DNA from: a virus
Lineage: Duplodnaviria; Caudoviricetes
Direction: 5' to 3' (one strand)
Length of the DNA: 51,379 nt
IMG/VR virus record: IMGVR_UViG_3300048834_000363
Location: 1 to 51,379 of that record
The position numbers and the translations under genes were made by a program. Shown here piece by piece: positions 28,447-43,522 of this stretch. A model generated the notes under the pieces. The model did not search any database, was not told the DNA's origin, and saw only the letters and a program-made list of their open reading frames with translations. Each line of letters starts with the position of its first letter. Position 1 is the first letter of the stretch.

Positions 28447-29144
28447 TGAAAAATCTCCGGATGCAGCTCGCGCTCGATCGCTGCGGCCTCGGCCTCGCGA
28501 TTGCCTTCGATGATCGCTTGCATGATGCTCGGTTCGGCCTTTTTCGGCTTTCCGCCGCCACCACGAAGCACCGCAACGGTGCGGTCGTGGATGGCCTGGA
28601 TCTGGGCGCGTTCTTCCTCGGTGGGCGGCGGATATTCGCGCTCCGGCGGTTTTGGCTTCTCGATGGTTTGGAGTGCCGCCAGCAGCGTACGGCGGCGGGC
28701 GAATTCCTTGTCGAGCAGGTCTTGCAGCTCTTTCCACTGCGGCCAGAATTTCGAGGTGCGATGCCAGCCGCCGACGACGTGCAAAGCGATGTCGGCGGGG
28801 TAGCGCCGCAGTTCGGCGACATAGGCGAGCATCTGCAGCTCTTCGCTGCCGTCGTCGCCCTCACGCCTCGCCACGAGCTGCGAGAGCGTGGCCAGGGCTC
28901 GCGTCAACTCGCTCTCCGTCGCCGGTTGGAGCATTTTCTTGGCCTGCGTCACCGCCAGATCGATCTTCGGCGAATCCGTGATCGATACAAAAACCTTCTT
29001 CGTTTGGTGTGGCGCGTTCGAGCTGATCGGCCGCTCTTCGAGCCTCAATCCGCAGCGCTGCTCGAACCAGGCCGCCGCGCGCTGGTCGCGCTCCGCTGGC
29101 GTCAGAAGGGCGGCTTCCTGGGACGTGGCGATCAGGTCTTGCAT
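28443..29144 (-). CDS. Putative replication accessory protein (helicase loader-like)
   Basis: Follows the initiator; AYVAELRRYPADI...SKFWPQWKEL pattern. Confidence 0.65.
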   Translation of the reverse strand: MQDLIATSQEAALLTPAERDQRAAAWFEQRCGLRLEERPISSNAPHQTKKVFVSITDSPKIDLAVTQAKKMLQPATESELTRALATLSQLVARREGDDGSEELQMLAYVAELRRYPADIALHVVGGWHRTSKFWPQWKELQDLLDKEFARRRTLLAALQTIEKPKPPEREYPPPTEEERAQIQAIHDRTVAVLRGGGGKPKKAEPSIMQAIIEGNREAEAAAIERELHPEIFQ

Positions 29145-30096
29145 GGTTGGCCTCCGGGTTGAGGCGACGATCGCGATTAGCGCGCGCCGTTTCGGAAATT
29201 GCGGGATGGGTGAACGAATGCAGCGGTTTCGGCCCCGCTGCGCAGGAAGCGGCGACGGCGCGCACTGCGGGCTCGACGTCGAGTTCCCAGTCGCACGGCT
29301 GGTCGCCATTGGTCGGTTCGCAGAGCGAGCGCAGTGGCGCGATATTGGCGAGCCCTGTCGTGGTGCGGTTGATGCCCGGCAGCGTGTCGACCAGCGCTTT
29401 GACGCGAACAAACCATTCGGTTGCGCTGAGCGCCGCAGGCCCGCCGCCGCTGCTGTCACGCTCAGGACCAGTCACAGGTGGAGCAGGTTTAGCTATATCC
29501 TCTCCTGTCCTGTCACTGTCCTTTCCCTGTAACTGTCTAGCCGTGACATTGGCCTCACCTGTCACGCCACCTGTCACGTTTTCTTCGTGACCGGTTTGCG
29601 TGACGTGTTTAGCGTGAAGCGCCCGCAAATCGGTGGTTTTGATGTTCCACGACGGCGTAACCCCTTGTTCTGAAAGCTCCGAGAACATGCGCTGACGATC
29701 GTCGCGCTCGCGCTTCTTGCGATCGTTTTCGGTGCGGCTCTGTTTTCGGCCTGACCACGACTCCAAAGCGATCTCAGCGACGGTCTTGTGATAGAGCCGC
29801 CCATCGCTGCACTTGATCCAGCCGCGCAGCGCCGCCGCTTTCACCTTGCGCCACTGCGAAACGGCGACGCCGTAGCCCGCATATTCGGACAGCAAAGCGT
29901 CGTCGTCGGGCAGGCTCGCAGCCGGCACTTCCTTCGCATAGCTGTGCCACCACAGCCGCAGCGCCGCGATCTTGGCGTCAGGCTTCGCGCCGATCCACGT
30001 CGCCGACGTGAACAATCGATCGCCGAAAAGCGGCATGAATTCGAAGCCGCGCAGGTCGCAGTCTGGAGGCGTCAAGGGGGCGGGAAGGTCGCTCAC
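28861..30096 (-). CDS. Replication initiator (DUF1376/YdaU family)
   Basis: PLTPPDCDLRGFEFMPL, LPDDDALL, WIKCSDGRLYH; contains internal iteron-like repeats. Confidence 0.85.
   Translation of the reverse strand: MSDLPAPLTPPDCDLRGFEFMPLFGDRLFTSATWIGAKPDAKIAALRLWWHSYAKEVPAASLPDDDALLSEYAGYGVAVSQWRKVKAAALRGWIKCSDGRLYHKTVAEIALESWSGRKQSRTENDRKKRERDDRQRMFSELSEQGVTPSWNIKTTDLRALHAKHVTQTGHEENVTGGVTGEANVTARQLQGKDSDRTGEDIAKPAPPVTGPERDSSGGGPAALSATEWFVRVKALVDTLPGINRTTTGLANIAPLRSLCEPTNGDQPCDWELDVEPAVRAVAASCAAGPKPLHSFTHPAISETARANRDRRLNPEANHARPDRHVPGSRPSDASGARPARGGLVRAALRIEARRAADQLERATPNEEGFCIDHGFAEDRSGGDAGQENAPTGDGERVDASPGHALAARGEA
29454..29604. repeat. Iteron-like GTCAC/GTGAC cluster, probable replication origin
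   Basis: At least 8 GTCAC/GTGAC copies in both orientations, including CACCTGTCACG at 29556..29566 and 29568..29578, in a lower-GC patch inside the initiator gene. Confidence 0.7.
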
Positions 30097-30911
30097 GCGC
30101 TCGCCTTTCCATCGGTTAGGATAGCAGGCGGCTTCGGTTTCCACTTCTCAAAATCGGCCTCGATCTCGGCGTAGTTGCGCGGGTGCTGCGCCTTGAAGTC
30201 GGGCATCTGCGCAGGCACTAAGCGACCGCGATCGCTGGCGTGATGGGTCAACCATTTCAGTGTGAGCCACCGGTGGATCGAAATCTTGAGGTCGGCGAAA
30301 TCCTGCCGCGTCACGTAGCCCTGGCGTTCGGCCAAGATCGCAATCTTTATTGCCCGCACCTTCCAGTCCGTGAGCTGGACCGGCCCTGATGCGCCAGCGA
30401 CGACATCGGGCACATATTCCGGCAACATGTGCCGCTGCGCGGTGCATCGATCGAACCAGTCGCGCATTTTCCAGGGGTCCGAACCGCTCGGCAGATCGGG
30501 CTCAAAGGCGGCGCGGCGAACGCGCCCGAAGCCTTTGACCTCCATCGATAGCTGGCCATGCTTCGTGATTGGCCCAGGCCCAGCGGCGCGGATCACGGTG
30601 ATCCCAAGCGCGGCGCAAATCGTGACGAGACCGTTCTGACACTTCGCCCCCGGCACAAGCACGGCGCGGCAGTCCGGACCAACAGGCTCGGCGCCAAGCC
30701 AGCCGTCGCTTTCGATGGCCTGGCACACCACGGCCGGGTTCAACAACAGCTTGGCCTGGACGCCGATCTGGAAGCCGTCGGGGGCGACGCACAAGACATC
30801 CCAGCCCGCGGTTTCAGGGTACGGAGTCCAGCCCTTGAGGCGCACCCATTCACAGAATTGGGCGCACATGGCGGCTTCGGAATCGTATGGGGTGGCGACG
30901 CTCTTTTTCAT
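30093..30911 (-). CDS. Hypothetical protein with a PD-(D/E)xK-like N-terminus
   Basis: YPETAGWDVLCV...IGVQAKL. Confidence 0.7.
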   Translation of the reverse strand: MKKSVATPYDSEAAMCAQFCEWVRLKGWTPYPETAGWDVLCVAPDGFQIGVQAKLLLNPAVVCQAIESDGWLGAEPVGPDCRAVLVPGAKCQNGLVTICAALGITVIRAAGPGPITKHGQLSMEVKGFGRVRRAAFEPDLPSGSDPWKMRDWFDRCTAQRHMLPEYVPDVVAGASGPVQLTDWKVRAIKIAILAERQGYVTRQDFADLKISIHRWLTLKWLTHHASDRGRLVPAQMPDFKAQHPRNYAEIEADFEKWKPKPPAILTDGKASA

Positions 30912-34476: not shown

Positions 34477-34501
34477 GTCAGCCCCCGCCGATCAGCCGCG
34501 T

Positions 34502-34897
34502 TTAGTTCAAGCCCGGCGCCGGAGCGCTGGCGCGTTCGGTGAAGACGAGCTCGCCTTGCTCGGCGCGGCCCAAGGCGACACGCATGTCGTCGAACGCCTT
34601 GAGGAATGCGTCGCGTGCTTCGTCTTCCATGCGTTCGAGCTTGATCCACAGCGCGGCGGCGCCGCGATGAATGCCGTGATCTTCTTCCGCCGCCTTCACC
34701 GCCGCGCCGATCTCGCCGCGAATGGACGCGGCTTTCGATTTCAGCGTGTTGATGTTTTTGACGTGGCCGACAAACTTCTCCGGATCGAACTCGGAGATGT
34801 CGTCGTCACGCTCGACGTCGGACGCGCGGCTCGATTGCGCAGCCTTCGCCGTCGGCTTCCTGATCTCGCTCTTCTTGCTGCCTGCTTTCGCCGCCAT
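34502..34897 (-). CDS. GapR/DUF2312-like DNA-binding protein
   Basis: KFVGHVKNINTL...EIGAAVKAAE...WIKLERME...MRVALG pattern; divergent from the family. Confidence 0.6.
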   Translation of the reverse strand: MAAKAGSKKSEIRKPTAKAAQSSRASDVERDDDISEFDPEKFVGHVKNINTLKSKAASIRGEIGAAVKAAEEDHGIHRGAAALWIKLERMEDEARDAFLKAFDDMRVALGRAEQGELVFTERASAPAPGLN

Positions 34898-35171
34898 ACT
34901 CGGCTCCTTTTTGCTTTCGGGGGATGCGCGTGCGGGGACCGCCGTTTTGGAGCGCGCGAAGGCGCTCCCAGGCCGCGCGCAATCGGCCTGTGGTCAGGTC
35001 ACAACCGGATTCGAGCCGGTGGATTTGCCGGCCGTGGTTGAAAATGATGGAGCTCACCGTCGCGGGTGAGATTTTTGGGGTGCGGCTGTTTGCGTACGCA
35101 TGCGCTGCGACGAGAAATTCGCGCACCTCGGGTGACACGGCCTGTGGAAAGGGGATTTCTTGTTCCGACAT
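34806..35171 (-). CDS. Cro-like repressor
   Basis: Divergent from CI; ATVSSIIFNHGRQIHRLESGCDLTTGRL. Confidence 0.75.
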   Translation of the reverse strand: MSEQEIPFPQAVSPEVREFLVAAHAYANSRTPKISPATVSSIIFNHGRQIHRLESGCDLTTGRLRAAWERLRALQNGGPRTRIPRKQKGAEYGGESRQQEERDQEADGEGCAIEPRVRRRA

Positions 35172-35184
35172 GCGCGCATTGGGT

Positions 35185-35238
35185 GCGTCAGATTTGACGG
35201 AGACGTCAAGCCCATTAATGACGCGTCAAAGATTACGC
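35185..35238. promoter_or_regulatory. Lysis/lysogeny switch with operator palindromes and overlapping TTGACG -35 boxes
   Basis: GCGTCAGATTTGACG (35185..35199) and GCGTCAAAGATTACGC (35223..35238); the same motif recurs at 36624..36639. Confidence 0.75.
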
Positions 35239-35262
35239 TCACAGATTTTTTGAGATGGAGCG

Positions 35263-36033
35263 ATGACGTTCGTCATGAAGCTCGATCTTGCGCGCCTCCG
35301 CGAACGCCTTGCCGTCATGGAGGAAAAGGGCGTGAAGCCGCGCCAAATCTCCATGCGCGTTGCTGGCACACCCGATCTGGTGCGTCACATTCTGAAGGGT
35401 AGGCAGTCCAGTACCGACGGAGTGAAATTGCTGCGCCTGGCGAAGGCGTTGGAGGCGTCTGTTGAGTACCTGCACGGCGAATCGGATGAGGTGGGCAAGC
35501 CGCCCGACGTGGAGCTTTTGGCGGAGCGCACGACTGTGCGGCGCAAGTCAGCCCGGCCAAGAGATGTCAGGATACCGTTGGCCGCTGGTGTCGGCCTTCA
35601 TGTGCGCCATGTCGTACAGGCGGGCGCATGGATTGAGGTCGATGAAGCGGCGAGTGAGCGGATCGTTGCCCCGCCAGTATCAGCCAGCTCAGCATTTCCA
35701 GCGGAAATGCAGTGGCTTGAGCTGGTGCGCGGGGACAGCGCTGACCTCTATTATCCAGAGGGCGCCTTCGTTCATGTCGTCGGCGCGATCGATATTGGTT
35801 ATGCACCTCGCGACAAGGATTTTGTTGTCGTTGAACGGCGTCGAGAGCAGGGCGGGCTGATCGAGCGCTCGATAAAGCAAGTCGAAAGGCGCGGTCGAAA
35901 AATCGAACTGTGGCCGCGATCCCGAAATCCGAAATGGCAGCGCCCCCTTGATCTAGGCGATGGCGCTGACGATTCCACAGAGGTGGAGATCGTCGCGCTG
36001 GTGCTTGGGGCGCATTTGCCAGCGCCGCAATAG
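35263..36033 (+). CDS. cI: CI-like repressor (HTH plus S24 peptidase)
   Basis: LRLAKALEASVEYL HTH end, VQAG cleavage site, VRGDS (Ser) and SIKQV (Lys). Confidence 0.9.
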   Translation: MTFVMKLDLARLRERLAVMEEKGVKPRQISMRVAGTPDLVRHILKGRQSSTDGVKLLRLAKALEASVEYLHGESDEVGKPPDVELLAERTTVRRKSARPRDVRIPLAAGVGLHVRHVVQAGAWIEVDEAASERIVAPPVSASSAFPAEMQWLELVRGDSADLYYPEGAFVHVVGAIDIGYAPRDKDFVVVERRREQGGLIERSIKQVERRGRKIELWPRSRNPKWQRPLDLGDGADDSTEVEIVALVLGAHLPAPQ

Positions 36034-36050
36034 TTCACCGGAGGTCAGGA

Positions 36051-36542
36051 ATGGCGGATGTCAGTGTTCTAGCGGGCGACTTCAATGGCGCCGTCCCAGG
36101 GGCTTACGTATTTGGGAGCCTTCATTTGGCGCGTCCTGGCGCGTGGTCAACGACCGACGTGTACGTGATCCGAAACGACGCCGTGACGCTGGAGATCGCT
36201 AGCGAGGAAACCGTAACCAAGGTCGGCGGCGCAATAGGATGGGGCGCGGTGGGCGGCTTGGTCGCCGGCCCAGTTGGGCTCTTGGCTGGTGCGATGCTTG
36301 GCGGAAAAGGCGAGAAGGTCGCGTTTGTTGCGGAATTCATCGACGGCAAGAAGCTGATGGCGATTTGCGACAAGGCGACATGGACGAAGATGCTTGCCGA
36401 TAAATTCAGAGGTCCAGACCCCAAGCTTCCGCCGCGAGAGCAGCGGCGCGGCGCGAGTAGAGGTGGCAGCTTTGCGCTGAACCTGATCGTCGGCTTGGTC
36501 GTGCTTGGTTTTCTTTTTTACGGCTGCGCCAGCCTCGGTTGA
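36051..36542 (+). CDS. Membrane-anchored glycine-zipper protein downstream of cI
   Basis: GGAIGWGAVGGLVAGPVGLLAGAMLGG; C-terminal TM segment. Confidence 0.8.
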   Translation: MADVSVLAGDFNGAVPGAYVFGSLHLARPGAWSTTDVYVIRNDAVTLEIASEETVTKVGGAIGWGAVGGLVAGPVGLLAGAMLGGKGEKVAFVAEFIDGKKLMAICDKATWTKMLADKFRGPDPKLPPREQRRGASRGGSFALNLIVGLVVLGFLFYGCASLG

Positions 36543-36597
36543 TCCGCGCCACGAAAATAAAGTTCCGAGCCGCGTCAACGGTCTAGAAAGAAATCCC

Positions 36598-36645
36598 CAG
36601 GCAGATTTTACGCACCGATTGACGCGTAAAATCTGACGCTATAAC
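36598..36645 (+). promoter_or_regulatory. Early promoter with an operator in its spacer
   Basis: TTGACGC (36619)-N12-GCTATAAC fits the Caulobacter-type sigma70 consensus; operator GCGTAAAATCTGACGC at 36624..36639 and a partial copy at 36598..36613. Confidence 0.8.
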
Positions 36646-36670
36646 GCTTCTCATACCGGAGGGGCGTTAC

Positions 36671-37606
36671 ATGAACACGCATACCGCAGACGAAAACATC
36701 GATCCGACGGCGCCGCTCGCGCCATCTGGTCGGCCCTGGGCTTACGGGCTGCGCACATGCGGGCCAAAAGGCGAGGCCTACAACGGTTTCACCTGGCCGA
36801 CCGAAAAGGGCGCAGTTGTTTCAGCGCCGGATTTTGATCCATCGCCAACCTGCGGCGGCGGCCTGCACCTCAACCCGTGGGGCATGGGCGACTGGTCGCT
36901 GCATTCGTATCACGCGTCCGCCCTGTGGATGGTGGTGCGGTACGACCCCGCGCTGGCGGTCGAACTCGACGGCGGTGAGCGTGGCGGCAAGATCAAGGCC
37001 CCTTGGGCCATCGTTGAGCAGGTCGAAACGCGGGAAAACCTTGCGCGCCTCCTCGGTCCGCTGGCGGTTCGGCGCATCGCTCGCATCAAGGAAATCACCT
37101 GTGACGCTGCGACGACCGGCTACGCCGCGCACGCTGCGACGACCGGCTACGCCGCGCACGCTGCGACGACCGGCTACGCCGCGCACGCTGCGACGACCGG
37201 CGACGCCGCGCACGCTGCGACGACCGGCGACGCCGCGCACGCTGCGACGACCGGCGGCCGCGCGCACGCTGCGACGACCGGCGGCCGCGCGCACGCTGCG
37301 ACGACCGGCGGCCGCGCGCACGCTGCGACGACCGGCGACGCCGCGCACGCTGCGACGACCGGCGGCCGCGCGCACGCTGCGACGACCGGCGACGACGCAA
37401 TCTCGGCAAGTCTCGGAATCGATGCACGGGCCAAGGCTGGCGCGGGCGGCGCAATCATGCTCGCCGAATACGGTTGGCGACCAGCGCTCGGCAAATACGA
37501 GCTCGTCGCCGTGTTCGCCTCCAAGGTGGGCGAGGGCGGCATTGAGCCCGACACCTGGTACAAGCTCGAAGGTGGCAAGCCTGTGGCGATCGAGGTGTCG
37601 CCATGA
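36671..37606 (+). CDS. Phage protein with 9-residue repeats (beta-solenoid-like)
   Basis: CGGGLHL N-domain, ten AATTGxxAH repeats, C-terminal KVGEGGIEPDTWYKL. Confidence 0.85.
   Translation: MNTHTADENIDPTAPLAPSGRPWAYGLRTCGPKGEAYNGFTWPTEKGAVVSAPDFDPSPTCGGGLHLNPWGMGDWSLHSYHASALWMVVRYDPALAVELDGGERGGKIKAPWAIVEQVETRENLARLLGPLAVRRIARIKEITCDAATTGYAAHAATTGYAAHAATTGYAAHAATTGDAAHAATTGDAAHAATTGGRAHAATTGGRAHAATTGGRAHAATTGDAAHAATTGGRAHAATTGDDAISASLGIDARAKAGAGGAIMLAEYGWRPALGKYELVAVFASKVGEGGIEPDTWYKLEGGKPVAIEVSP
37106..37399 (+). repeat. 27-bp tandem repeat, 10 full copies plus 1 partial
   Basis: GCTGCGACGACCGGC(TACGCC/GACGCC/GGCCGC)GCGCAC. Confidence 0.97.
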
Positions 37607-38025
37607 ACGCCGCCGCCGCTCCGCTCACACTCACCCGGCGCTTTGACGGGCCATGGCTTGCGATCCGCCGCGTCAGCGTCGCCGAGATCCATTCCATCGT
37701 TCTGGCGGGCGATCCGCGCGCGCCTGACATCTGGCGCCGCATCGATGCTGATCAGCCTGTGGAGACGGGCCGTGTCGCCGAGGCGCAGCTCACCCCGCTC
37801 GCCGACTTCGGCGTGTTCTGCTCGCTCTATCCGCACAGCCGCGTGCTGTCTGTTTACCGCGCGACGATCTCGCGCGCGCATCGGCCTGGACTGCCATCCG
37901 GCCACGGCGCGCACTGGCCGTGGGAGGGCAAGCGCTGCGACCGCATCAAGATCGAGCGGTCGATGTGGGACCTGGTCGCCGCCGCCGCGAAGGACTGCAA
38001 CACAATCGGTCGGGTGCGGGCCTAA
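37603..38025 (+). CDS. Hypothetical protein
   Basis: ATGA overlap with the upstream gene. Confidence 0.65.
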   Translation: MNAAAAPLTLTRRFDGPWLAIRRVSVAEIHSIVLAGDPRAPDIWRRIDADQPVETGRVAEAQLTPLADFGVFCSLYPHSRVLSVYRATISRAHRPGLPSGHGAHWPWEGKRCDRIKIERSMWDLVAAAAKDCNTIGRVRA

Positions 38026-38240
38026 TGTCGGCGCCCTCACTCCAAGCCACGGTTGCGCTCGACGACGTCGTCGCCTCGATCGATGAGGCCGCTGATCTGA
38101 CCATCGCGCTGCGCATCGCGGTGCGCATGAACACGCAGGCCTCGCGCGCCTTTTCGCGTGAGCTGATGGTGGAGATGGCGAAGCGGCACTCGCAGGTGGT
38201 CGACGAGCTCGTCGCCGTCAACGAAGCGATGGAAGCGTGA
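38025..38240 (+). CDS. Hypothetical protein (MSAPSLQ...)
   Basis: TAATG overlap start; helical. Confidence 0.65.
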   Translation: MSAPSLQATVALDDVVASIDEAADLTIALRIAVRMNTQASRAFSRELMVEMAKRHSQVVDELVAVNEAMEA

Positions 38241-38587
38241 TGCGTAAGCCGACCGACCGCACCGAGGCTTGGTCGCGCTGGCGGCAGCGTGTCGAAGGGC
38301 GCGCGCTGGCGATCACCACAACGCCGGAGTGCGGCTTCTACCGCGCCAAGCGCAAAGGCCAGTACGTCGGCGTGCAGATCGATCTGCTGCAGGAGATCGA
38401 CGAAGAGACTGGCGAGCTCCGCAGCGAAGAGCAGCTGATCGCGATGATCGGCGACGACACGTTCATCGGCGATCGCGTCGACGCGATCTGGGTCGCGTGC
38501 GGCGGCAACCCCATCAGTGAGCAGGAATTCGAGCGGCTGCTGCGCATGCCGGCGGTGTCGGACCTGTCGCGCCAAGTCATCACCTAG
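38240..38587 (+). CDS. Hypothetical protein
   Basis: TGATG overlap; PECGFYR...W..C..NPISEQEFE pattern. Confidence 0.75.
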   Translation: MRKPTDRTEAWSRWRQRVEGRALAITTTPECGFYRAKRKGQYVGVQIDLLQEIDEETGELRSEEQLIAMIGDDTFIGDRVDAIWVACGGNPISEQEFERLLRMPAVSDLSRQVIT

Positions 38588-38597
38588 GAGGAATTAC

Positions 38598-39140
38598 ATG
38601 GGCCTGGACATCACCGCTTATCGTCAGCTGAAGCCCTGCGCCGCACCGGAGGGAGCCGCGACAGGCGATTACGACTACGAACGATTCTTCGCGCCGTTGA
38701 ACAACGACCACTTCCCAGGACGCGCCGCTGGGCTCGACAGTGAGTGGTACGAGTTCTCACGCCTCGATGGGGCCGTTCTTGGTTTCAGAGCCGGAAGCTA
38801 CAGCGGCTACAATAATTGGCGCGAATGGCTCGCAAAGCTCGCCGGGTACCCGGAAGACCCTGCGGAGGATTTGCGGCATCGACATTCTGGCGGGGCGTGG
38901 AAAGCGGACGGCGGGCCGTTCTGGGAGCTGATCTACTTCGCCGACAATGAGGGCACGATCGGCCCCATCGTCAGCGCGAAGCTCGCGAAGGATTTCGCCG
39001 AGTGGGATGAGCGCGCGAAGGCATTCAGCGAAACCATCGACGCAGATGCTGAGAGCCGCGCTTGGTTCTACCGGCAATATCAGACGTGGCGGCATGCGTT
39101 TGAAATGGCGGCCGACAACGGCGCGGTCGACTTCCATTGA
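38598..39140 (+). CDS. Hypothetical phage protein (MGLDITAY...)
   Basis: Strong SD AGGAGG; FRAGSYSGYNNWREWLA, FADNEGTIG. Confidence 0.85.
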   Translation: MGLDITAYRQLKPCAAPEGAATGDYDYERFFAPLNNDHFPGRAAGLDSEWYEFSRLDGAVLGFRAGSYSGYNNWREWLAKLAGYPEDPAEDLRHRHSGGAWKADGGPFWELIYFADNEGTIGPIVSAKLAKDFAEWDERAKAFSETIDADAESRAWFYRQYQTWRHAFEMAADNGAVDFH

Positions 39141-39148
39141 GGCCCGCC

Positions 39149-39913
39149 ATGACCGACACAGCAACCATCGGCCATAACAGCGGGGCGCAATTCGCCGACG
39201 TGCGCCGCGACATCGAGCAGCGCATCGCCGCGTTCCTGAAGGGCGGCGACGTATGGGCGAAGCGCGAGAAGCTCGACGACGCGGACGCCGCGAAGGCGAA
39301 CGACTTCATCACCGGGGTGAAGAAGCTCGCCAGCGACGCGGAGAAGGCGCGCGTCGCCGAGAAGGAGCCGCACTTAGAAGCGGGCCGCGCCGTCGACCGC
39401 GAGTGGAAGCAGATCGCCGAACGCATCGACGCCATCGCGGCGATCGTGAAGCCGAAGCTCGACGCGTACCTGCGCGCCAAGCAGGAGGAGCAGCGCAGGG
39501 CGGAGGCGGAGGCCCGCCGGCTCGCCGCTGAGGCCGAGGCCAACGCCCGCGCGGCGGCGGCTGATGCGGCGGCAGCTGAGACGCCGTCGGCGCAGATCGA
39601 GGCCGAGGCGCGGGCGCGGGCGCATCAGGAGGCGGCGGACGAAGCGGCGCGACAAGCCGAACGCAACGCAGCGCCCGTGCGCGTGGGTTCCGCAACCGGG
39701 CTCGCGCATCAGCGCGGTTTCAAGACGGTGCGCAAGCCCTCGATCAAATCGATGCCGCAGGCGCTCGCGCACTATCGCGACGAACCCGATCTCGAAGCGC
39801 TGATCTTGAAGCTGGCGGCGCGCGATCTGCGCGAAGCGCCGACGCGGCGGGGCGTGAAGCAAATCCCCGCCATCCCCGGAATTGAGTTCGTTGAGACACA
39901 GGAGCTTGCATAG
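39149..39913 (+). CDS. Coiled-coil early protein
   Basis: IGHN start, EKARVAEKEPHLEAGRAVD, Ala/Glu/Arg coil, IPGIEF end. Confidence 0.8.
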   Translation: MTDTATIGHNSGAQFADVRRDIEQRIAAFLKGGDVWAKREKLDDADAAKANDFITGVKKLASDAEKARVAEKEPHLEAGRAVDREWKQIAERIDAIAAIVKPKLDAYLRAKQEEQRRAEAEARRLAAEAEANARAAAADAAAAETPSAQIEAEARARAHQEAADEAARQAERNAAPVRVGSATGLAHQRGFKTVRKPSIKSMPQALAHYRDEPDLEALILKLAARDLREAPTRRGVKQIPAIPGIEFVETQELA

Positions 39914-39917
39914 CTAT

Positions 39918-40017
39918 CGCAGCGCGACGCGCCGCAACACATCACGCCGCAACACATCACGACACAGCGCTCCGCGCCGCTGCTCGTCACGGCACAACAC
40001 CCCGCAACGCAACGCTT
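39918..40017 (+). repeat. Pentamer array 1, 20 x (C-R-Y + NN); candidate guide ncRNA
   Basis: cgcAG cgcGA cgcGC cgcAA cacAT cacGC cgcAA cacAT cacGA cacAG cgcTC cgcGC cgcTG ctcGT cacGG cacAA cacCC cgcAA cgcAA cgcTT. Confidence 0.92.
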
Positions 40018-40035
40018 ACCCAATGGAGAATAGCA

Positions 40036-40602
40036 ATGCCCAAGATCGCAAGCTGCACCCTCAAAGCCATCTCGCCGTATTCGCAATCGCGCGCTCACGA
40101 GTCTCCGAAGAAGGAGAAGGAAACGCACGACGCCTATGAGCAGCGCACTTGGCGCGAGAAGGCGCACTTCGATGCAGATAGCGCAGTTTTCATTCCACCG
40201 ATGTCGCTGAAGATGGCGCTCGACGCGGGGGCGAAGTACCTACAGCTGCAAATTCCCGGCAAGGGCAAGTCGACGTACACGAAACACTTTGCATCCGGTT
40301 GCTTGGTGCTGGAGCCAGCATTCGTCGGCGTCCACAAAGACAATCTGCTCTGCGACCGCATCTATGCGAACGCTGACGGCGTGCGCGGTTCAGGCAAGCG
40401 TGTGTGGAAGTATTTTCCGCGCGTCGACAATTGGAAGGTCGACGTCGACTTCCACGTTTATGACGACGCCATCACCCGCGAGGTGTTCGAGAAGGTGCTC
40501 GGTGAAGCGGGGCGCTTCATCGGCATCGGCAGATTCCGTCCGCAGAACGGTGGGTTTTACGGTCGCTTCGCCGTCGAAAAGGTGAAGCGGCAAGAGGCTT
40601 AG
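40036..40602 (+). CDS. Stand-alone RAMP (Cas7/Csm3-like) protein
   Basis: TLKAISP first strand, FIPPMSLKMAL (compare IPGSSLKG), WKVDVDF, C-terminal Gly-rich loop GIGRFRPQNGGFYGRFAV; SD GGAG. Confidence 0.75.
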   Translation: MPKIASCTLKAISPYSQSRAHESPKKEKETHDAYEQRTWREKAHFDADSAVFIPPMSLKMALDAGAKYLQLQIPGKGKSTYTKHFASGCLVLEPAFVGVHKDNLLCDRIYANADGVRGSGKRVWKYFPRVDNWKVDVDFHVYDDAITREVFEKVLGEAGRFIGIGRFRPQNGGFYGRFAVEKVKRQEA

Positions 40603-40607
40603 ATTGC

Positions 40608-40697
40608 CGCGTCGCATCGCAGCGCGTCGCCTCGCGTCGCCCCGCGCCATTTCGTAGCGCCACGCCCCACGCCGCACCACACCACAGCACAACGTCT
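40608..40697 (+). repeat. Pentamer array 2, 18 x (C-R-Y + NN); candidate guide ncRNA
   Basis: cgcGT cgcAT cgcAG cgcGT cgcCT cgcGT cgcCC cgcGC catTT cgtAG cgcCA cgcCC cacGC cgcAC cacAC cacAG cacAA cgtCT. Confidence 0.92.
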
Positions 40698-40715
40698 ACT
40701 CGCCAGGAATCGTAC

Positions 40716-41219
40716 ATGTTCACCTCAAGCGCAGAAATCGCCGCGACCGCCGAGACATTATCCGATGCGCTTTGCGCGCTCTCGCCTGGCGAAATCGCCA
40801 CGTACACGCAACTGAGCAAGCTCGCCGGTGAGTCGCTATCTGGAGCCTCTTACGTTCTTCGTCGCGCGCTCAAACTTGCCGAGGAGCGCAGTGGCGCGCT
40901 GTTCGAGAACGTCACCGGGCGCGGATACAAGCGCCTGGAGACGACCGCCATTCCTGCCGTCGGGAAGAAAGCTAACGGGCGCATTCGTGGCGTCGCTCGG
41001 CGAACGCGCAAGCGGTTCGAGAGCGTGCGCGCAAACGACATGAACCAGAGCGATCTCGCCACGGTGGCCGCCTATCGCTCGCACTTCGGAATGATCGAAG
41101 GTATGGCGCGCGAGAACAACATCAAATCCCAGGCTCGTCAGATCGCTGCCGCAAGCGTGTCGGTTGCCGACGCGGCAGCGGGGCTGATGGGCTCAGAGAA
41201 AAAGGAGCAGACGAAGTGA
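40716..41219 (+). CDS. Winged-helix plus helical protein, probable partner of the RAMP protein
   Basis: PGEIATYTQLSKLAG (HTH-like) and FENVTGRGYKR (wing-like). Confidence 0.75.
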   Translation: MFTSSAEIAATAETLSDALCALSPGEIATYTQLSKLAGESLSGASYVLRRALKLAEERSGALFENVTGRGYKRLETTAIPAVGKKANGRIRGVARRTRKRFESVRANDMNQSDLATVAAYRSHFGMIEGMARENNIKSQARQIAAASVSVADAAAGLMGSEKKEQTK

Positions 41220-41482
41220 CGACCGAAGCAATTGAACTCCTCCGCACACGCGTGTTGCAGGCGCGCGAGATCGCGAAGGAGGCCATCACCGAATATCACG
41301 CGATGCATGCGCGGATTCAGGAGAAATACAAAATCTGGAGCGAGGCCACCTCGCAGGAAGAGGGCTTCATTTACGCCATACGTGAACTCGGTGGTGAGAT
41401 CGATGATCCGAAGGCTCACGGGTTCTTTCTGAAACCGACGCTCGACGCGCTCTCAGCTGCGCTCACTGAGGAGAAGAACTAA
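41216..41482 (+). CDS. Hypothetical protein
   Basis: GTGA overlap with SD AAGGAG. Confidence 0.7.
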   Translation: MTTEAIELLRTRVLQAREIAKEAITEYHAMHARIQEKYKIWSEATSQEEGFIYAIRELGGEIDDPKAHGFFLKPTLDALSAALTEEKN

Positions 41483-42670
41483 ATGAACGCGCCCGCACCC
41501 CGCGTGATCGACCTCGACCAAGACGGTCAGGAGATCAGCGTCAACCTCGAACAGATGGGCGTCTCCGCCGCCGAGGTGAACCAGCAGATCGCCACCGCCA
41601 AGAAGTACCCGCGCTCGCTTGAGCAATTCCGCAAAGAGCTGATCGGGCAGGTGACGCTGTCGGAGTCCATCGCGCGCAGCTGCATCTATGCGCTGCCACG
41701 CGCCGGCAAGAAGATCGAAGGCCCCTCGATCCGCTTCGCCGAGATGGCCATGGGCGCCTGGGGCAATTGCCGCGCCACCGCCCGCATCGTGGCCGAGACG
41801 GAGAACTTCGTCATCGCGCAAGGCATCTTCATCGACCTGCAGCGCAACGTCGCCGTAGGGATCGAGGTCGGGCGTCGCATCATCGACTCCGAGGGCCGGC
41901 GCTTCAATATCGATATGATCGGAGTCACTGGCGCCGCGGCCTCGTCGATCGCGCTGCGCAACGCCATCCTGCGCGGCATCCCGCGTGCGCTCACCGATGA
42001 AGCCTACGTCAACGCGAAGCGCACCGTCGCCGGCACGCTGGCCACGCTCGCGGATCGGCGCAACCGCGCGCTCGAAGCGTTCAAGCCGTACGGCGTGACG
42101 GAGCAGCAAATCCTCGCCGCGCTGGGCAAGCAAGGCCTGGTCGAGATCGGGCTCGAAGACCTGGTCACGCTCGGGGGCTTCCTCACCGCGATCCAGCAAG
42201 AGGAGCGCGATCCCGAAGAGATTTTCCCGCCGGCCACGAACGCGGCGACGCGCCGTCAATCGGCGCCGCCTCCGGCTGCGGAGAAACCGCAACAACAAAC
42301 CAGTTCCCCCAGCGGCGGGGGCTCCGCAGGCGCCGACGCGCCAAAGGCTGATGGTGGTGACGGGGGCGAAGGCCAAGCCCCGCCTGCGGAGAAGCCGAAG
42401 CCGGAGCCGAAGCCGAGGAAGGCGGCGCGTGAGCCCAGCGAACTCGAACAGTCGATCGCCAACACCTTGGCCGACTGCAAGACGCTGGCCGATTGCGACG
42501 GCGTCCGCTCGCTCTTCCAGCGCGAGCTGATCGATGCGTCCCCGGAAGTGCGCGCCGCCGTCGAGCTGCTGATCGATGACGCCAAGGCCGCGATCCAGAA
42601 GCGCCTCGAAGCCGACGATGATTTCCCCGGCGATCGCCCACCGAACTCAGTGTCGGGGAGCCTGGTCTGA
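41483..42670 (+). CDS. Putative recombination (single-strand annealing-like) protein
   Basis: QIATAKKYPRS, YALPRAGKKIEGPSIRFAE, SIALRNAIL; disordered linker and small C-domain; function inferred from pattern and position. Confidence 0.7.
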   Translation: MNAPAPRVIDLDQDGQEISVNLEQMGVSAAEVNQQIATAKKYPRSLEQFRKELIGQVTLSESIARSCIYALPRAGKKIEGPSIRFAEMAMGAWGNCRATARIVAETENFVIAQGIFIDLQRNVAVGIEVGRRIIDSEGRRFNIDMIGVTGAAASSIALRNAILRGIPRALTDEAYVNAKRTVAGTLATLADRRNRALEAFKPYGVTEQQILAALGKQGLVEIGLEDLVTLGGFLTAIQQEERDPEEIFPPATNAATRRQSAPPPAAEKPQQQTSSPSGGGSAGADAPKADGGDGGEGQAPPAEKPKPEPKPRKAAREPSELEQSIANTLADCKTLADCDGVRSLFQRELIDASPEVRAAVELLIDDAKAAIQKRLEADDDFPGDRPPNSVSGSLV

Positions 42671-42888
42671 TGCAGCGCCGCACCTTCTACCAAGCTGTTG
42701 ACATCAAGATCACGGGACGCCTGCAGCGTGTCGAGGTCAACGCTGACGGCGAGATCAGGCTGTCGGGCTGCGACGGCTGCATGACGCCCGTGCAAGCCGC
42801 AGCCGCCCGCACGCTGCTCGATGAAGCGCTGGCGCATGTCGCCAGCCTCGATGGCGGCGCGCCCTATCCAGAACGCAAGCAGGAGTGA
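42670..42888 (+). CDS. Hypothetical protein
   Basis: TGATG overlap. Confidence 0.6.
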   Translation: MQRRTFYQAVDIKITGRLQRVEVNADGEIRLSGCDGCMTPVQAAAARTLLDEALAHVASLDGGAPYPERKQE

Positions 42889-43118
42889 GCCCAATGCGTT
42901 ACGTGCAAGTCTTATTCAATCCGTGGGATCAGCGCTCCTACACCTACGCCGTGCCTGAAGGCGTCGAGGTGAAGGAGGGCGACAAGGTCGAAGTCGATAC
43001 GCAGCGCGGCATCCGCGAGGTCGAAGTCGTCAGCGTCCTTGACCAGCGCCCCAGCAACACGCCGGCCCACGTCGAGATCAAGCCGTTCATGCACGTGCTG
43101 CCACGAGCGGAGGCCTGA
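42885..43118 (+). CDS. Small SH3-like barrel protein
   Basis: RSYTYAVP...VKEGDKVEV. Confidence 0.7.
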   Translation: MSPMRYVQVLFNPWDQRSYTYAVPEGVEVKEGDKVEVDTQRGIREVEVVSVLDQRPSNTPAHVEIKPFMHVLPRAEA

Positions 43119-43123
43119 TCGCT

Positions 43124-43522
43124 ATGTCCAGAGCAGCGACCCCCGACGACAAAACCATCGGCGCCCGCGTGCGCATGAAACGCATCAGCCTCGGCATGAG
43201 CCAAGAGATGCTGGCCGATTATCTCGGACTCACCTTTCAACAGGTGCAGAAGTACGAGATCGGCAAGAACCGCATCGCGGCGAGCAGGCTGATCGGCATC
43301 GCCAGTGCGCTTGGCTGCTCGATCGACGAGCTGATCGGCGGCATCGGCGCCACATCGAACCAAGCCGCCGACGATCTCCTGCGTACCCCAAACGGGCAGG
43401 CCTTGGCGCTTGCCTTCCGCTCGATCGAAAGCCCCGCGCTGCAGCTCGCCGCGATCGAGGCCGTGCGCGCAATCGCCAAGGGCGCCGGCGCTGCCGACAC
43501 CGCCGCGAAGAAGCGGAGCTGA
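43124..43522 (+). CDS. XRE-family HTH regulator
   Basis: IGARVRMKR...GMSQEMLADYLGLTFQQVQKYEIGKNRI. Confidence 0.92.
   Translation: MSRAATPDDKTIGARVRMKRISLGMSQEMLADYLGLTFQQVQKYEIGKNRIAASRLIGIASALGCSIDELIGGIGATSNQAADDLLRTPNGQALALAFRSIESPALQLAAIEAVRAIAKGAGAADTAAKKRS

What the first reader, a model, noticed from the sequence alone, without database searches (positions are those of the whole stretch)
39918..41219. Candidate phage RNA-guided system: lone RAMP protein between two CRY-NN pentamer arrays, plus a winged-helix partner
Seen: the order is array (20 x 5 nt), 188-aa gene, array (18 x 5 nt), 167-aa gene. In 37 of 38 units the first three bases are C-R-Y (one is CTC) while the last two vary freely. 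The arrays fill the intergenic gaps from just after a stop codon to just before the next SD, and I saw no such array elsewhere in the window. Knowledge: the protein has the RAMP hallmarks of Cas7/Csm3, which polymerise along RNA with a fixed nucleotide step. Inference: one protomer binds each 5-nt unit through the constant triplet and displays the NN bases as a discontinuous guide, perhaps against rival phages or host promoters. No cas1, cas2, cas6 or CRISPR array is present. I recall a recent report of phage RAMP loci with GGY-NN repeats (VIPR) but cannot verify it here; a CRY triplet would be a different variant.
Basis: partly seen in the sequence, partly recalled or inferred. Interest (0 to 1): 0.95.

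Follow-up and report, generated by a model that had tools for sequence, protein, structure and literature searches.

The report
Phage VIPR system with C-first repeats
This is a phage copy of the recently described VIPR RNA-guided silencing system, built from a small Cas7-like protein, two guide-RNA arrays and a DNA-binding partner, and it differs from the textbook form only in using C-R-Y instead of G-G-Y as the fixed part of each five-base repeat.

Summary
Window 39918-40017 is 20 pentamers and 40608-40697 is 18. In 37 of 38 the first three bases are C-R-Y (22 CGC, 12 CAC, 2 CGT, 1 CAT, 1 CTC), and the last two bases vary. In 200 shuffles the longest run was 7 units.

The 188-aa protein is a Vipr. 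Its only PDB sequence match is 'SUSP1 Vipr protein' (E 9.9e-5 alone, 7.9e-7 as a profile). Its AlphaFold model matches Cas7/Csm3 (Foldseek E 1.6e-8).

Of 80 viral loci with a homologue plus the window, 68 carry same-strand pentamer arrays next to the gene: 35 G-first and 33 C-first.

The 167-aa neighbour has a winged-helix-like N-terminal domain.

The window is a whole 51-kb tailed-phage record.

So this is a VIPR locus as described in 2026 preprints. One of them already reports non-canonical repeats such as CAC/NN. I could not show transcription, RNA binding or a target, and every target search was empty or at chance level.

The parts
39918..40017 (+). vrRNA array 1: 20 pentamer units C-R-Y/NN (11 CGC, 8 CAC, 1 CTC). 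It lies between the stop codon of the upstream gene and the ribosome-binding site of vipr.
   Evidence: The RNA strand is inferred from same-strand arrays in 68 of 81 homologous loci and from the parallel tails.
39916..39930 (+). Conserved 5' start motif AT-CGCAG-CGCGA-CGC. It matches the start of array 2 at 14 of 15 positions.
   Evidence: CGCAGC lies at the 5' edge of 17 of 79 distinct C-type arrays and 0 of 57 G-type arrays.
40003..40017 (+). Conserved 3' end of vrRNA 1: CGCAA CGCAA CGCTT. It is the C-first counterpart of the GGCAA GACAA GGTTT end seen in G-type relatives.
   Evidence: 65 of 79 distinct C-type arrays end in CAAC[AG][CT], and 50 of 57 G-type arrays end in CAAG[AG].
40036..40602 (+). 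vipr: a 188-aa minimal RAMP (Cas7-like) protein.
   Evidence: The only PDB sequence hit is 36pp_D 'SUSP1 Vipr protein' (E 9.9e-5; 7.9e-7). hhalign against a Felixounavirus Vipr gives probability 95.9%. It matches phrog_4652 at E 1.9e-16. AF2 pLDDT is 89.7. Foldseek finds Cas7/Csm3 at E 1.6e-8.
40348..40425 (+). Predicted thumb: a beta-hairpin at residues 105-130. Its tip (113-121) has lower confidence and carries the invariant G115, R117, G118, S119, G120, K121 and R122.
40522..40566 (+). Glycine-rich loop, residues 163-177 (GIGRFRPQNGGFYGR). It aligns with the SUSP1 G-loop: D177 to R166, W178 to F167, R179 to R168.
   Evidence: The roles of the SUSP1 residues come from 10.64898/2026.04.26.720927, section 5.
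40608..40697 (+). vrRNA array 2: 18 pentamer units (11 CGC, 4 CAC, 2 CGT, 1 CAT). The conserved start motif lies at 40616-40630, and the array ends CACAG CACAA CGTCT.
40716..41219 (+). vap-like accessory gene, 167 aa. Residues 1-75 (40716-40940) form a winged-helix-like domain, followed by long helical hairpins.
   Evidence: AF2 pLDDT 87.8. VIA-align Z 9.1 to 5wy5_B and Z 7.0 to the PurR N-terminus. A homologue lies downstream of vipr on the same strand in 18 of 80 viral loci by tblastn. Pfam, PHROGs and NCBIfam give no family.

Best explanation
The locus is a VIPR (Viral Interference Programmable Repeat) system carried by a tailed phage.

It is most likely transcribed left to right, together with its neighbours. 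The two intergenic arrays would be cut or trimmed out as two vrRNAs of about 90-105 nt. Vipr protomers would bind one per pentamer: they bury the fixed C-R-Y triplet between the thumb, the glycine-rich loop and the RRM face, and they expose the two variable bases.

The resulting helical filament would read double-stranded DNA through a gapped code (two paired bases, one skipped). It would sit on the target as a transcription block, helped in some way by the winged-helix Vap protein. The probable targets are competing mobile elements in the same host.

**Shown here:**
- homology and fold of Vipr;
- the arrays and their statistics;
- conservation of the array-gene-array-vap layout, and of the array ends, across relatives;
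- the phage context.

**Inferred from the SUSP1 work only:** transcription and processing, one protomer per unit, DNA rather than RNA as target, the 1-nt skip, and repression.

**What is particular to this locus:** the first fixed base is C, not G, and the second is any purine.
For: **Vipr homology and fold**
- The single PDB sequence match is SUSP1 Vipr.
- hhalign against the Vipr of Felixounavirus ECP2307 gives probability 95.9%, E 6.2e-9.
- tblastn reaches 126 phage records, mostly Felixounavirus-type Escherichia, Salmonella and Shigella phages.
- The top 50 listed Foldseek matches are all CRISPR Cas7-family subunits.

**Arrays in relatives**
- 68 of 81 loci have 5-periodic arrays next to the gene, all read on the vipr strand with the variable pair in positions 4-5.
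- 8 of 9 further loci from bacterial genome assemblies also have arrays, and 6 of those are C-first.
- The ECP2307 locus shows its GGY/NN arrays on the vipr strand too.

**Array ends**
- C-type arrays end ..CAA-C-R.. and G-type arrays end ..CAA-G-R.. (65 of 79 and 50 of 57). The two classes therefore look like the same RNA with position 1 swapped.

**RNA structure**
- On the + strand both arrays fold no better than shuffles (z +1.08 and +1.03), as expected for a protein-held single strand.

**Self-targeting**
- There is no self-target under the 1-nt skip. The best scores are 20 of 32 and 17 of 26, no better than at other spacings. This matches the discovery paper's report of no self-targeting.

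**Phage context**
- The record encodes a tape-measure protein, major head protein, portal and large terminase.
- The record is the whole 51,379-bp virus entry.
Against: - **No expression data.** No sequencing run could be listed.
- **No promoter or terminator signal** above shuffles.
- **No target found.**
  - Four exact 10-unit patterns in viral contigs gave 0 hits.
  - One of two patterns in metagenome contigs gave 0 hits. The other gave a single hit that fails on extension: 0-1 of 8 flanking bases match, and the codon phase is wrong.
  - Full-length patterns with up to 3 mismatches gave 0 hits in the 5 nearest relatives' records.
- **The triplet is not GGY.** Of the SUSP1 residues that read GGY and can be aligned, two are not conserved (D177 to R166, R138 to F127). 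The way this protein reads its repeat is therefore unknown.
- **No structured 3' tail** of the SUSP1 kind.
- **Vap shows no sequence similarity** to the gene in the vap1 position of ECP2307 (E 29).
- **12 of 81 loci had no array** by my automated criteria, and 1 was mixed.
Confidence: 0.8

Rival explanations
1. The arrays are transcribed from the opposite strand, giving G-Y-G/NN RNAs. The guide would then be antisense to the operon, and the fixed triplet would be read in a different register.
For: The reverse complement of CGC/CAC is GCG/GTG, which keeps a leading G as in GGY. The minus-strand RNA of array 1 folds better than all 200 shuffles (z -3.29).
Against: - Canonical relatives with 50-57% identical proteins have GGC/NN on the vipr strand, in the same intergenic positions.
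- The ends of the two array classes are parallel only in the + orientation.
- Reading the + strand changes one triplet position relative to GGY; reading the minus strand changes two.
- The minus strand of array 2 shows no such folding (z -0.95).
- No minus-strand promoter-like site was found beside either array (39,914-40,035 and 40,603-40,715); the single promoter-like site in 34,500-43,500 is on the + strand at 38,784.
Confidence: 0.07
2. The arrays are mainly cis-acting leaders. Vipr coats its own mRNA just upstream of the vipr and vap ribosome-binding sites and controls their translation. There would be no trans DNA target.
For: Each array ends 18 nt before the next start codon and about 7 nt before the Shine-Dalgarno-like GGAG or AGGAA. 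No target was found.
Against: - NN positions vary freely. Close relatives (81% and 77% protein identity) have different numbers and contents of arrays, which a fixed operator would not need.
- Relatives carry up to five or more arrays in tandem, far from any start codon (L002, L067).
- SUSP1 vrRNAs act in trans on DNA.
- This idea can coexist with the main explanation.
Confidence: 0.05
3. The pentamer tracts are DNA-level sites, such as iterons or bent DNA bound by the winged-helix protein or a replication factor, and are not RNA guides.
For: A DNA-binding-type protein is encoded next door. The locus lies among replication and recombination genes: an exonuclease-like phrog_10477 gene upstream and a replication-protein gene at 28861-30144.
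Against: - The arrays travel with the RAMP gene in 68 of 81 loci. A Vap homologue was detected in only 18 of 80 loci.
- A 3-fixed/2-free period of 5 is the published vrRNA signature.
- Strand asymmetry (C-rich on the gene strand in every C-type locus) is not expected of a DNA site.
Confidence: 0.03

Closest known systems
SUSP1 / Pseudomonas fulva VIPR (type II), bioRxiv 10.64898/2026.04.26.720920 and 10.64898/2026.04.26.720927
   Same: - Phage-borne.
- A small stand-alone RAMP protein with a thumb and a glycine-rich loop, detectably homologous.
- An accessory gene directly downstream.
- Pentamer arrays with three fixed and two free bases, on the gene strand, both upstream and downstream of vipr.
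- Array lengths of 16-20 units lie within the published range of 9-16 and 'up to 30' units.
   Different: - The triplet is C-R-Y, not G-G-Y.
- Only the C-terminal ~75 residues align by sequence.
- The G1-reading Asp177 and the G2-contacting Arg138 are replaced by Arg and Phe.
- There is no pseudoknot or hairpin tail, only a conserved ..CAA-CGCAA-CG end.
- There is one vrRNA on each side, not one plus three.
- Vap is unrelated in sequence to the vap1-position gene (E 29).
- The VIPR type (I-VII) could not be assigned, because the figures and supplementary data were not available.
Non-canonical VIPR array clusters in 'Systematic mapping of the prokaryotic noncoding sequence space with a genomic language model', bioRxiv 10.64898/2026.10.21.760802
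   Same: That preprint reports 21 clusters (6,318 sequences) of 5-nt arrays beside Vipr-like folds whose fixed triplet is not GGY. Its examples are GAC/NN, CAC/NN, WGT/NN and TGH/NN (passages read). I saw CAC/NN and GAC/NN in relatives of this locus (L034, L079, L042, L085).
   Different: The text I could read does not name CGC/NN or a mixed CGC/CAC (C-R-C) array. Its Fig. S10 is an image, so I could not check it. It gives no experiments on these variants.
CRISPR class 1 backbone subunits (Cas7 of type VII, Csm3, Cmr4/6)
   Same: The fold is the same: RRM core, thumb hairpin and glycine-rich loop. Foldseek gives E 1.6e-8 to 1e-5 and TM 0.5-0.63. By analogy it also polymerises along RNA with a fixed step.
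   Different: - Sequence identity in the structural alignments is 10-18%.
- There is no CRISPR repeat-spacer array: Rfam finds nothing in the whole window, and TRF finds no array of CRISPR-like period.
- I did not screen the other ORFs of the window for cas genes.
- The step is 5 nt, not 6.
- The guide is non-contiguous.

Membership tests
VIPR system | Vipr protein homologous to an experimentally characterised Vipr | tested here: met
   phmmer gives E 9.9e-5 and the profile gives 7.9e-7 to PDB 36pp_D 'SUSP1 Vipr protein', with no other significant PDB hit. hhalign to the ECP2307 Vipr gives probability 95.9%. Only the C-terminal 70-85 residues are covered.
VIPR system | Minimal RAMP fold: single RRM core, thumb and glycine-rich loop | tested here: met
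   AF2 pLDDT 89.7. The Foldseek top hits are Cas7-family subunits. The glycine-rich loop is at residues 163-177, with invariant G163, G165, G173 and G176. The thumb hairpin is at residues 105-130.
VIPR system | Tandem 5-nt repeats with three conserved and two hypervariable positions, flanking vipr on its strand | tested here: met
   for the window. 68 of 81 loci overall.
VIPR system | Fixed triplet is GGY (the canonical definition) | tested here: not met
   The triplets are 22 CGC, 12 CAC, 2 CGT, 1 CAT and 1 CTC out of 38. The discovery paper allows 'a related consensus' and lists NNNGG, YNNNG and NNNNG. The October 2026 preprint lists CAC/NN. So this excludes the canonical subclass, not the family.
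VIPR system | Adjacent vap accessory gene with a predicted DNA-interacting fold | tested here: met
   The 167-aa gene lies 113 nt downstream on the same strand. It has a winged-helix-like N-terminal domain. Its support is moderate (Z 9.1; Foldseek best E 0.065). It shows no similarity to the vap1-position gene of ECP2307.
VIPR system | Encoded by a virus or provirus, outside a CRISPR-cas locus | tested here: met
   It is a virus record with tail, head, portal and terminase genes. Rfam gives no match in the window. I did not screen every ORF for cas genes.
VIPR system | Arrays expressed as ~100-nt vrRNAs that co-purify with Vipr | not testable with these tools
   No sequencing run could be listed.
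VIPR system | Targets obey the 1-nt skip rule (NNx) | tested here: inconclusive
   No target was found for either vrRNA. I also compared 163 arrays against 0.55 Mb of held sequence. Skip 1 gave the only hits at 20 of 24, but they reduce to one independent event, between a G-type array of L057/L058 and the L018 group.
VIPR system | Conserved 3' tail after the repeat tract | tested here: inconclusive
   A conserved sequence end (..CAA-CRCAA-CG) is present. No stable structure is predicted (z about +1). The SUSP1 pseudoknot is described for that clade only.
CRISPR-Cas class 1 (Cas7/Csm3) | Association with a CRISPR repeat-spacer array and other cas genes | tested here: not met
   No CRISPR-DR family in Rfam matches. 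TRF finds no such array. The neighbouring genes are phage genes.

The most novel reading that the evidence does not exclude
The C-first triplet may define a guide-loading class that is orthogonal to GGY.

Within one Vipr subfamily (proteins at least 44-50% identical), about half of the loci use C-x-C/NN and half use G-x-C/NN. On the tree the label needs only about 3 switches, and the RNA ends are otherwise parallel.

Satellites and rival phages are reported to carry solo vrRNAs that borrow a phage's Vipr and misdirect it (10.64898/2026.10.15.759431: abstract, plus passages found by term search). A switch of the fixed triplet would make a phage's Vipr deaf to such decoys. If so, repeat-triplet diversity would be the trace of an arms race over guide loading, and C-type and G-type pairs would be ready-made orthogonal tools.

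The words 'orthogonal', 'cross-react' and 'compatib' do not occur in that paper's main text. I ran no wider literature search on this idea.
Probability: 0.25. Interest if true: 0.65.

Novelty: new member of a known kind. Interest (0 to 1): 0.35.

Why it matters
VIPR was described only in 2026, and the experiments so far cover GGY-type systems from enterobacterial and Pseudomonas phages.

This locus, with the 33 C-first loci found around it, shows that a close-knit branch of Vipr proteins reads a different fixed triplet while keeping the same layout and the same RNA ends. That offers a natural pair of specificities for asking how the protein recognises its repeat, and whether different VIPR systems can work side by side without cross-loading.

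For genome annotation it is a reminder that callers built on GG[CT]NN, such as the one described in 10.64898/2026.10.15.759431, would miss about half of this subfamily.

The locus does not change the picture of what VIPR is.

Tried and rejected
**Target search.** Nothing usable came of it.
- Window self-scan at skips 0-3.
- Four exact 10-unit NNx patterns in viral contigs: 0 hits each.
- Two patterns in metagenome contigs: 0 hits, and 1 hit (L091) judged chance. Only 0-1 of 8 flanking guide bases match, and the NN bases fall on codon positions 2-3 of a ThDP-enzyme-like ORF.
- Full-length patterns with up to 3 mismatches in the records of L001, L002, L003, L004 and L010: 0 hits.
- These scans needed exact or near-exact matches. 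The published threshold is 80% of NN bases, so real targets could have been missed.

**All-against-all of 163 arrays** against 0.55 Mb of held sequence. One independent hit at 20 of 24 under skip 1, and none at 20 or more under skips 0 or 2. That is too little to test the skip rule. The first version of the script timed out.

**A single residue as the G/C switch.**
- Position 112 is N or H in 27 of 28 C-type proteins and P in 22 of 22 G-type proteins.
- But the tree gives only 2 independent contrasts (p 0.5).
- In nine further loci from genome assemblies, P112 occurs with CGC or CAC arrays in 3 of 6 C-type loci.
- So it is rejected as the sole determinant. It remains true that a non-P residue was seen only with C-type arrays.

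**Expression.** No RNA holder was listed and no run of any kind could be listed.

**Promoters and terminators.** 1 and 7 sites, against 1.3 and 7.6 in shuffles.

**Rfam.** Nothing in 39000-42000 at E <= 1, and nothing in the whole window. So there are no hammerhead-type spacers of the kind reported for some VIPR types.

**Family libraries.** Pfam and NCBIfam give nothing for Vipr or Vap. Pfam on 15 Vap relatives gives only weak DNA_binding_1 hits in 5 of 15 (best E 0.023).

**Host inference.** The genome-contig scan found only distant relatives (44-59% identity) in metagenome-assembled genomes of several phyla. No tRNA gene is present. Relatives cannot be drawn for a virus record.

**VIPR type (I-VII).** Not assignable, because the defining figures and data files could not be read.

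Full report
**Observation.**
- After the stop codon of the gene ending at 39913 come 20 pentamers (39918-40017). Then follow a Shine-Dalgarno-like GGAG and the ATG of a 188-aa ORF (40036-40602).
- After its stop codon come 18 pentamers (40608-40697), then AGGAA and the ATG of a 167-aa ORF (40716-41219).
- The first three bases of the 38 units are CGC (22), CAC (12), CGT (2), CAT (1) and CTC (1). So 37 of 38 are C-R-Y.
- The last two bases use 14 of the 16 possible dinucleotides (lists).
- No other run longer than 5 units exists on either strand.
- In 200 composition-preserving shuffles the longest run was 7 units.
- A lag-5 periodicity scan of all 51,379 bases picks out only these two tracts above 37 nt.
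- Both tracts begin with the same 15 nt, AT-CGCAG-CGCG[A/T]-CGC (39916-39930 and 40616-40630). They end in ..CAA-CGCAA-CGCTT and ..CAG-CACAA-CGTCT.
- Array 1 contains a perfect three-unit duplication at 39930-39961.

**The protein.**
- Pfam and NCBIfam give nothing. PHROGs gives phrog_4652, of unknown function, at E 1.9e-16.
- Against all PDB chain sequences the only hit is 36pp_D, 'SUSP1 Vipr protein'. E is 9.9e-5 for the single sequence and 7.9e-7 for a 35-sequence profile, and the next best hit is at E 0.85.
- A profile comparison with the Vipr gene of the SUSP1-like Felixounavirus ECP2307 gives probability 95.9% over the C-terminal 72 columns.
- tblastn against 50,697 phage records finds 126 records, mostly Felixounavirus-type coliphages. 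The longest matches are in Pseudomonas phages LESphi2 and Medea1.
- The AlphaFold model is confident (pLDDT 89.7, pTM 0.84). It has the RAMP layout: a beta-alpha-beta core, a beta-hairpin thumb (residues 105-130) and a glycine-rich loop (163-177).
- Foldseek against the PDB returns 150 matches at E <= 1e-3. All of the top 50 listed are CRISPR backbone subunits: type VII Cas7, Csm3, Cmr4/6 and Cas7-11.
- The family is large: 2,876 proteins at E <= 1e-3 among 2,946 length-matched candidates.

**The literature.**
- bioRxiv 10.64898/2026.04.26.720920 (Results and Methods sections 18 and 20 read, plus passages found by term search, which included a Methods section on natural targets and figure legends) describes VIPR. 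It has a stand-alone ancestral RAMP (Vipr), an accessory vap gene, and ~100-nt vrRNAs made of 9-16 GGY/NN pentamers. These recognise double-stranded DNA by pairing NN and skipping one target base, which silences transcription of competing phages and satellites.
- It defines seven types, says that all use GGY/NN 'or a related consensus', and names NNNGG, YNNNG and NNNNG alternatives.
- The companion cryo-EM preprint 10.64898/2026.04.26.720927 (sections 5, 6 and 9 read) shows one protomer per repeat. G1 is read by H17 and D177, G2 by R138 and W178, and Y3 sits in a pocket with R179.
- A third preprint, 10.64898/2026.10.15.759431 (abstract and passages), shows satellites and phages carrying solo vrRNAs that borrow Vipr.
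- A fourth, 10.64898/2026.10.21.760802 (passages and section 33), reports 21 clusters with non-canonical triplets next to Vipr-like folds and names GAC/NN, CAC/NN, WGT/NN and TGH/NN.
- The full-text search for 'vrRNA' returned 6 papers, 4 after merging copies.

**Relatives.** A scan of viral contigs gave 307 confirmed relatives, of which the best 80 were kept.
I took windows with lag-5 identity of at least 0.6 and set the phase by the two least conserved columns.
- Of the 80 loci plus the window, 35 have G-first triplets (mostly GGC, some GKC or GAC), 33 have C-first triplets (CGC, CRC, CKC, CAC), 1 is mixed and 12 have no array that passed my thresholds.
- All arrays are on the vipr strand, upstream and/or downstream of the gene.
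- By eye, several of the 'none' loci do have degenerate arrays, for example L046 with GTC/NN.
- Eight of nine further loci from bacterial genome assemblies (Competibacteraceae, Propionivibrio, Methylococcaceae, Nevskia, two cyanobacteria, Lentimicrobiaceae, Terriglobia) also have arrays, and six are C-first.
- The window's nearest relatives are L001 (81% protein identity), L002 (77%) and L003 (61%). All are C-first, but they differ completely in the number and NN content of their arrays. L001 has three arrays upstream and one downstream. L002 has none upstream and at least five downstream.
- Thus the triplets and ends are conserved while the NN bases turn over, as expected of guides.

**Which strand?** Three observations favour the gene strand.
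- Canonical relatives, and the ECP2307 locus, have GGY/NN on the gene strand.
- C-type arrays end in CAAC[AG][CT] (65 of 79 distinct arrays) where G-type arrays end in CAAG[AG] (50 of 57). The two classes therefore look like one RNA design with only position 1 exchanged.
- The + strand RNAs are, if anything, less structured than shuffles (z +1.08 and +1.03).

The minus strand of array 1 folds unusually well (z -3.29), but that of array 2 does not (z -0.95). I keep the antisense reading as a minor rival.

**How the C is read.**
- In the alignable part, SUSP1 W178 and R179 correspond to F167 and R168. F167 is nearly invariant and R168 is invariant in this subfamily. This fits conserved handling of positions 2 and 3.
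- D177 and R138 correspond to R166 and F127. These replacements occur in both G-type and C-type members, so they do not explain the switch.
- A column-by-column comparison of 22 G-type and 28 C-type proteins pointed to residue 112 at the base of the thumb (P in 22 of 22; N or H in 27 of 28). It also pointed to residues 20, 42, 60, 63, 111 and 172.
- On the tree the G/C label needs only 3 changes, and only 2 independent contrasts exist.
- In the nine genome-derived loci, three C-type systems carry P112.
- I therefore report no determinant. The correlation is largely shared ancestry.

**The partner.**
- The 167-aa protein has no family in Pfam, PHROGs or NCBIfam and only 3 close relatives by word-based search.
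- tblastn finds a homologue (22-57% identity) downstream of vipr, after the array(s), on the same strand in 18 of 80 loci of both array classes.
- Its model (pLDDT 87.8) starts with helix-strand-helix-helix-strand-strand (residues 5-73) and continues with long helices.
- Foldseek has no match at E <= 1e-3. The weak matches are GntR/FadR, PurR, OmpR/ToxR, MarR, ArsR and ScpB winged-helix proteins.
- VIA-align puts a winged-helix domain first (5wy5_B, Z 9.1, rmsd 2.6 over 75 residues). The PurR N-terminus scores Z 7.0.
- The ESM Atlas places it among virus-dominated unnamed clusters.
- It shows no similarity to the gene in the vap1 position of ECP2307.
- 'Winged-helix Vap' is a reasonable label with moderate support.

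**Context.**
- The window is an entire virus record. It encodes a tape-measure protein, tail fibre, major head protein, portal, large terminase, a replication protein and an HNH endonuclease.
- The VIPR locus sits in a rightward operon between an exonuclease-like gene (phrog_10477) and a phrog_3657 gene.
- There are no tRNA genes, no Rfam families and no CRISPR-like array.

**Targets and expression.** These were not established; see the field on what was tried. Nothing in the window matches either guide under any skip rule better than background. That agrees with the published absence of self-targeting, but it is not positive evidence.

**Verdict.**
- The system is a member of the VIPR family.
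- Its C-R-Y triplet departs from the canonical GGY. However, C-first and other non-canonical triplets beside Vipr-like proteins are already in print.
- This is therefore a new member of a known kind.

Noticed in passing
window 37104-37398 (inside ORF 36671-37606, + strand): A 27-nt tandem repeat with 10.9 copies at 95% identity. It encodes a nine-residue repeat AATTG[Y/D/G][A/R]AH in a 311-aa protein. Function unknown.
   Followed up: no
window 39930-39961: A perfect 15-nt (three-unit) duplication inside vrRNA array 1. It suggests that arrays grow by duplication of whole units.
   Followed up: no
L036 and L042 (viral contigs): Sister Vipr proteins (SH-aLRT 96) carry different fixed triplets: CGC/NN in 79 units versus GAC/NN in 56 units. 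This would be a useful natural pair for studying repeat recognition.
   Followed up: partly
L017 about 3620-3670 and repeats downstream: In some G-type relatives each array is followed by a conserved hairpin (GGAACTGGCAGTGGG...CCCACTGCAC). The window's arrays have no such element.
   Followed up: no
L002 3556-4100: The 77%-identical relative has no upstream array but at least five tandem vrRNA-like arrays between vipr and vap. Each ends in ..CAACGCGACG followed by a T-rich stretch.
   Followed up: no
L091 2264-2292: This is the one exact metagenome match to a 10-unit pattern of vrRNA 2. It lies in a ThDP-enzyme-like ORF of an AT-rich organism and fails every extension test, so I judged it chance.
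   Followed up: yes
window 39137-39913 and 41483-42670: The flanking genes are an exonuclease-like gene (phrog_10477, E 8.8e-22) and a phrog_3657 gene (E 6.6e-48). The VIPR locus therefore sits in what looks like the early or recombination region of the phage.
   Followed up: no
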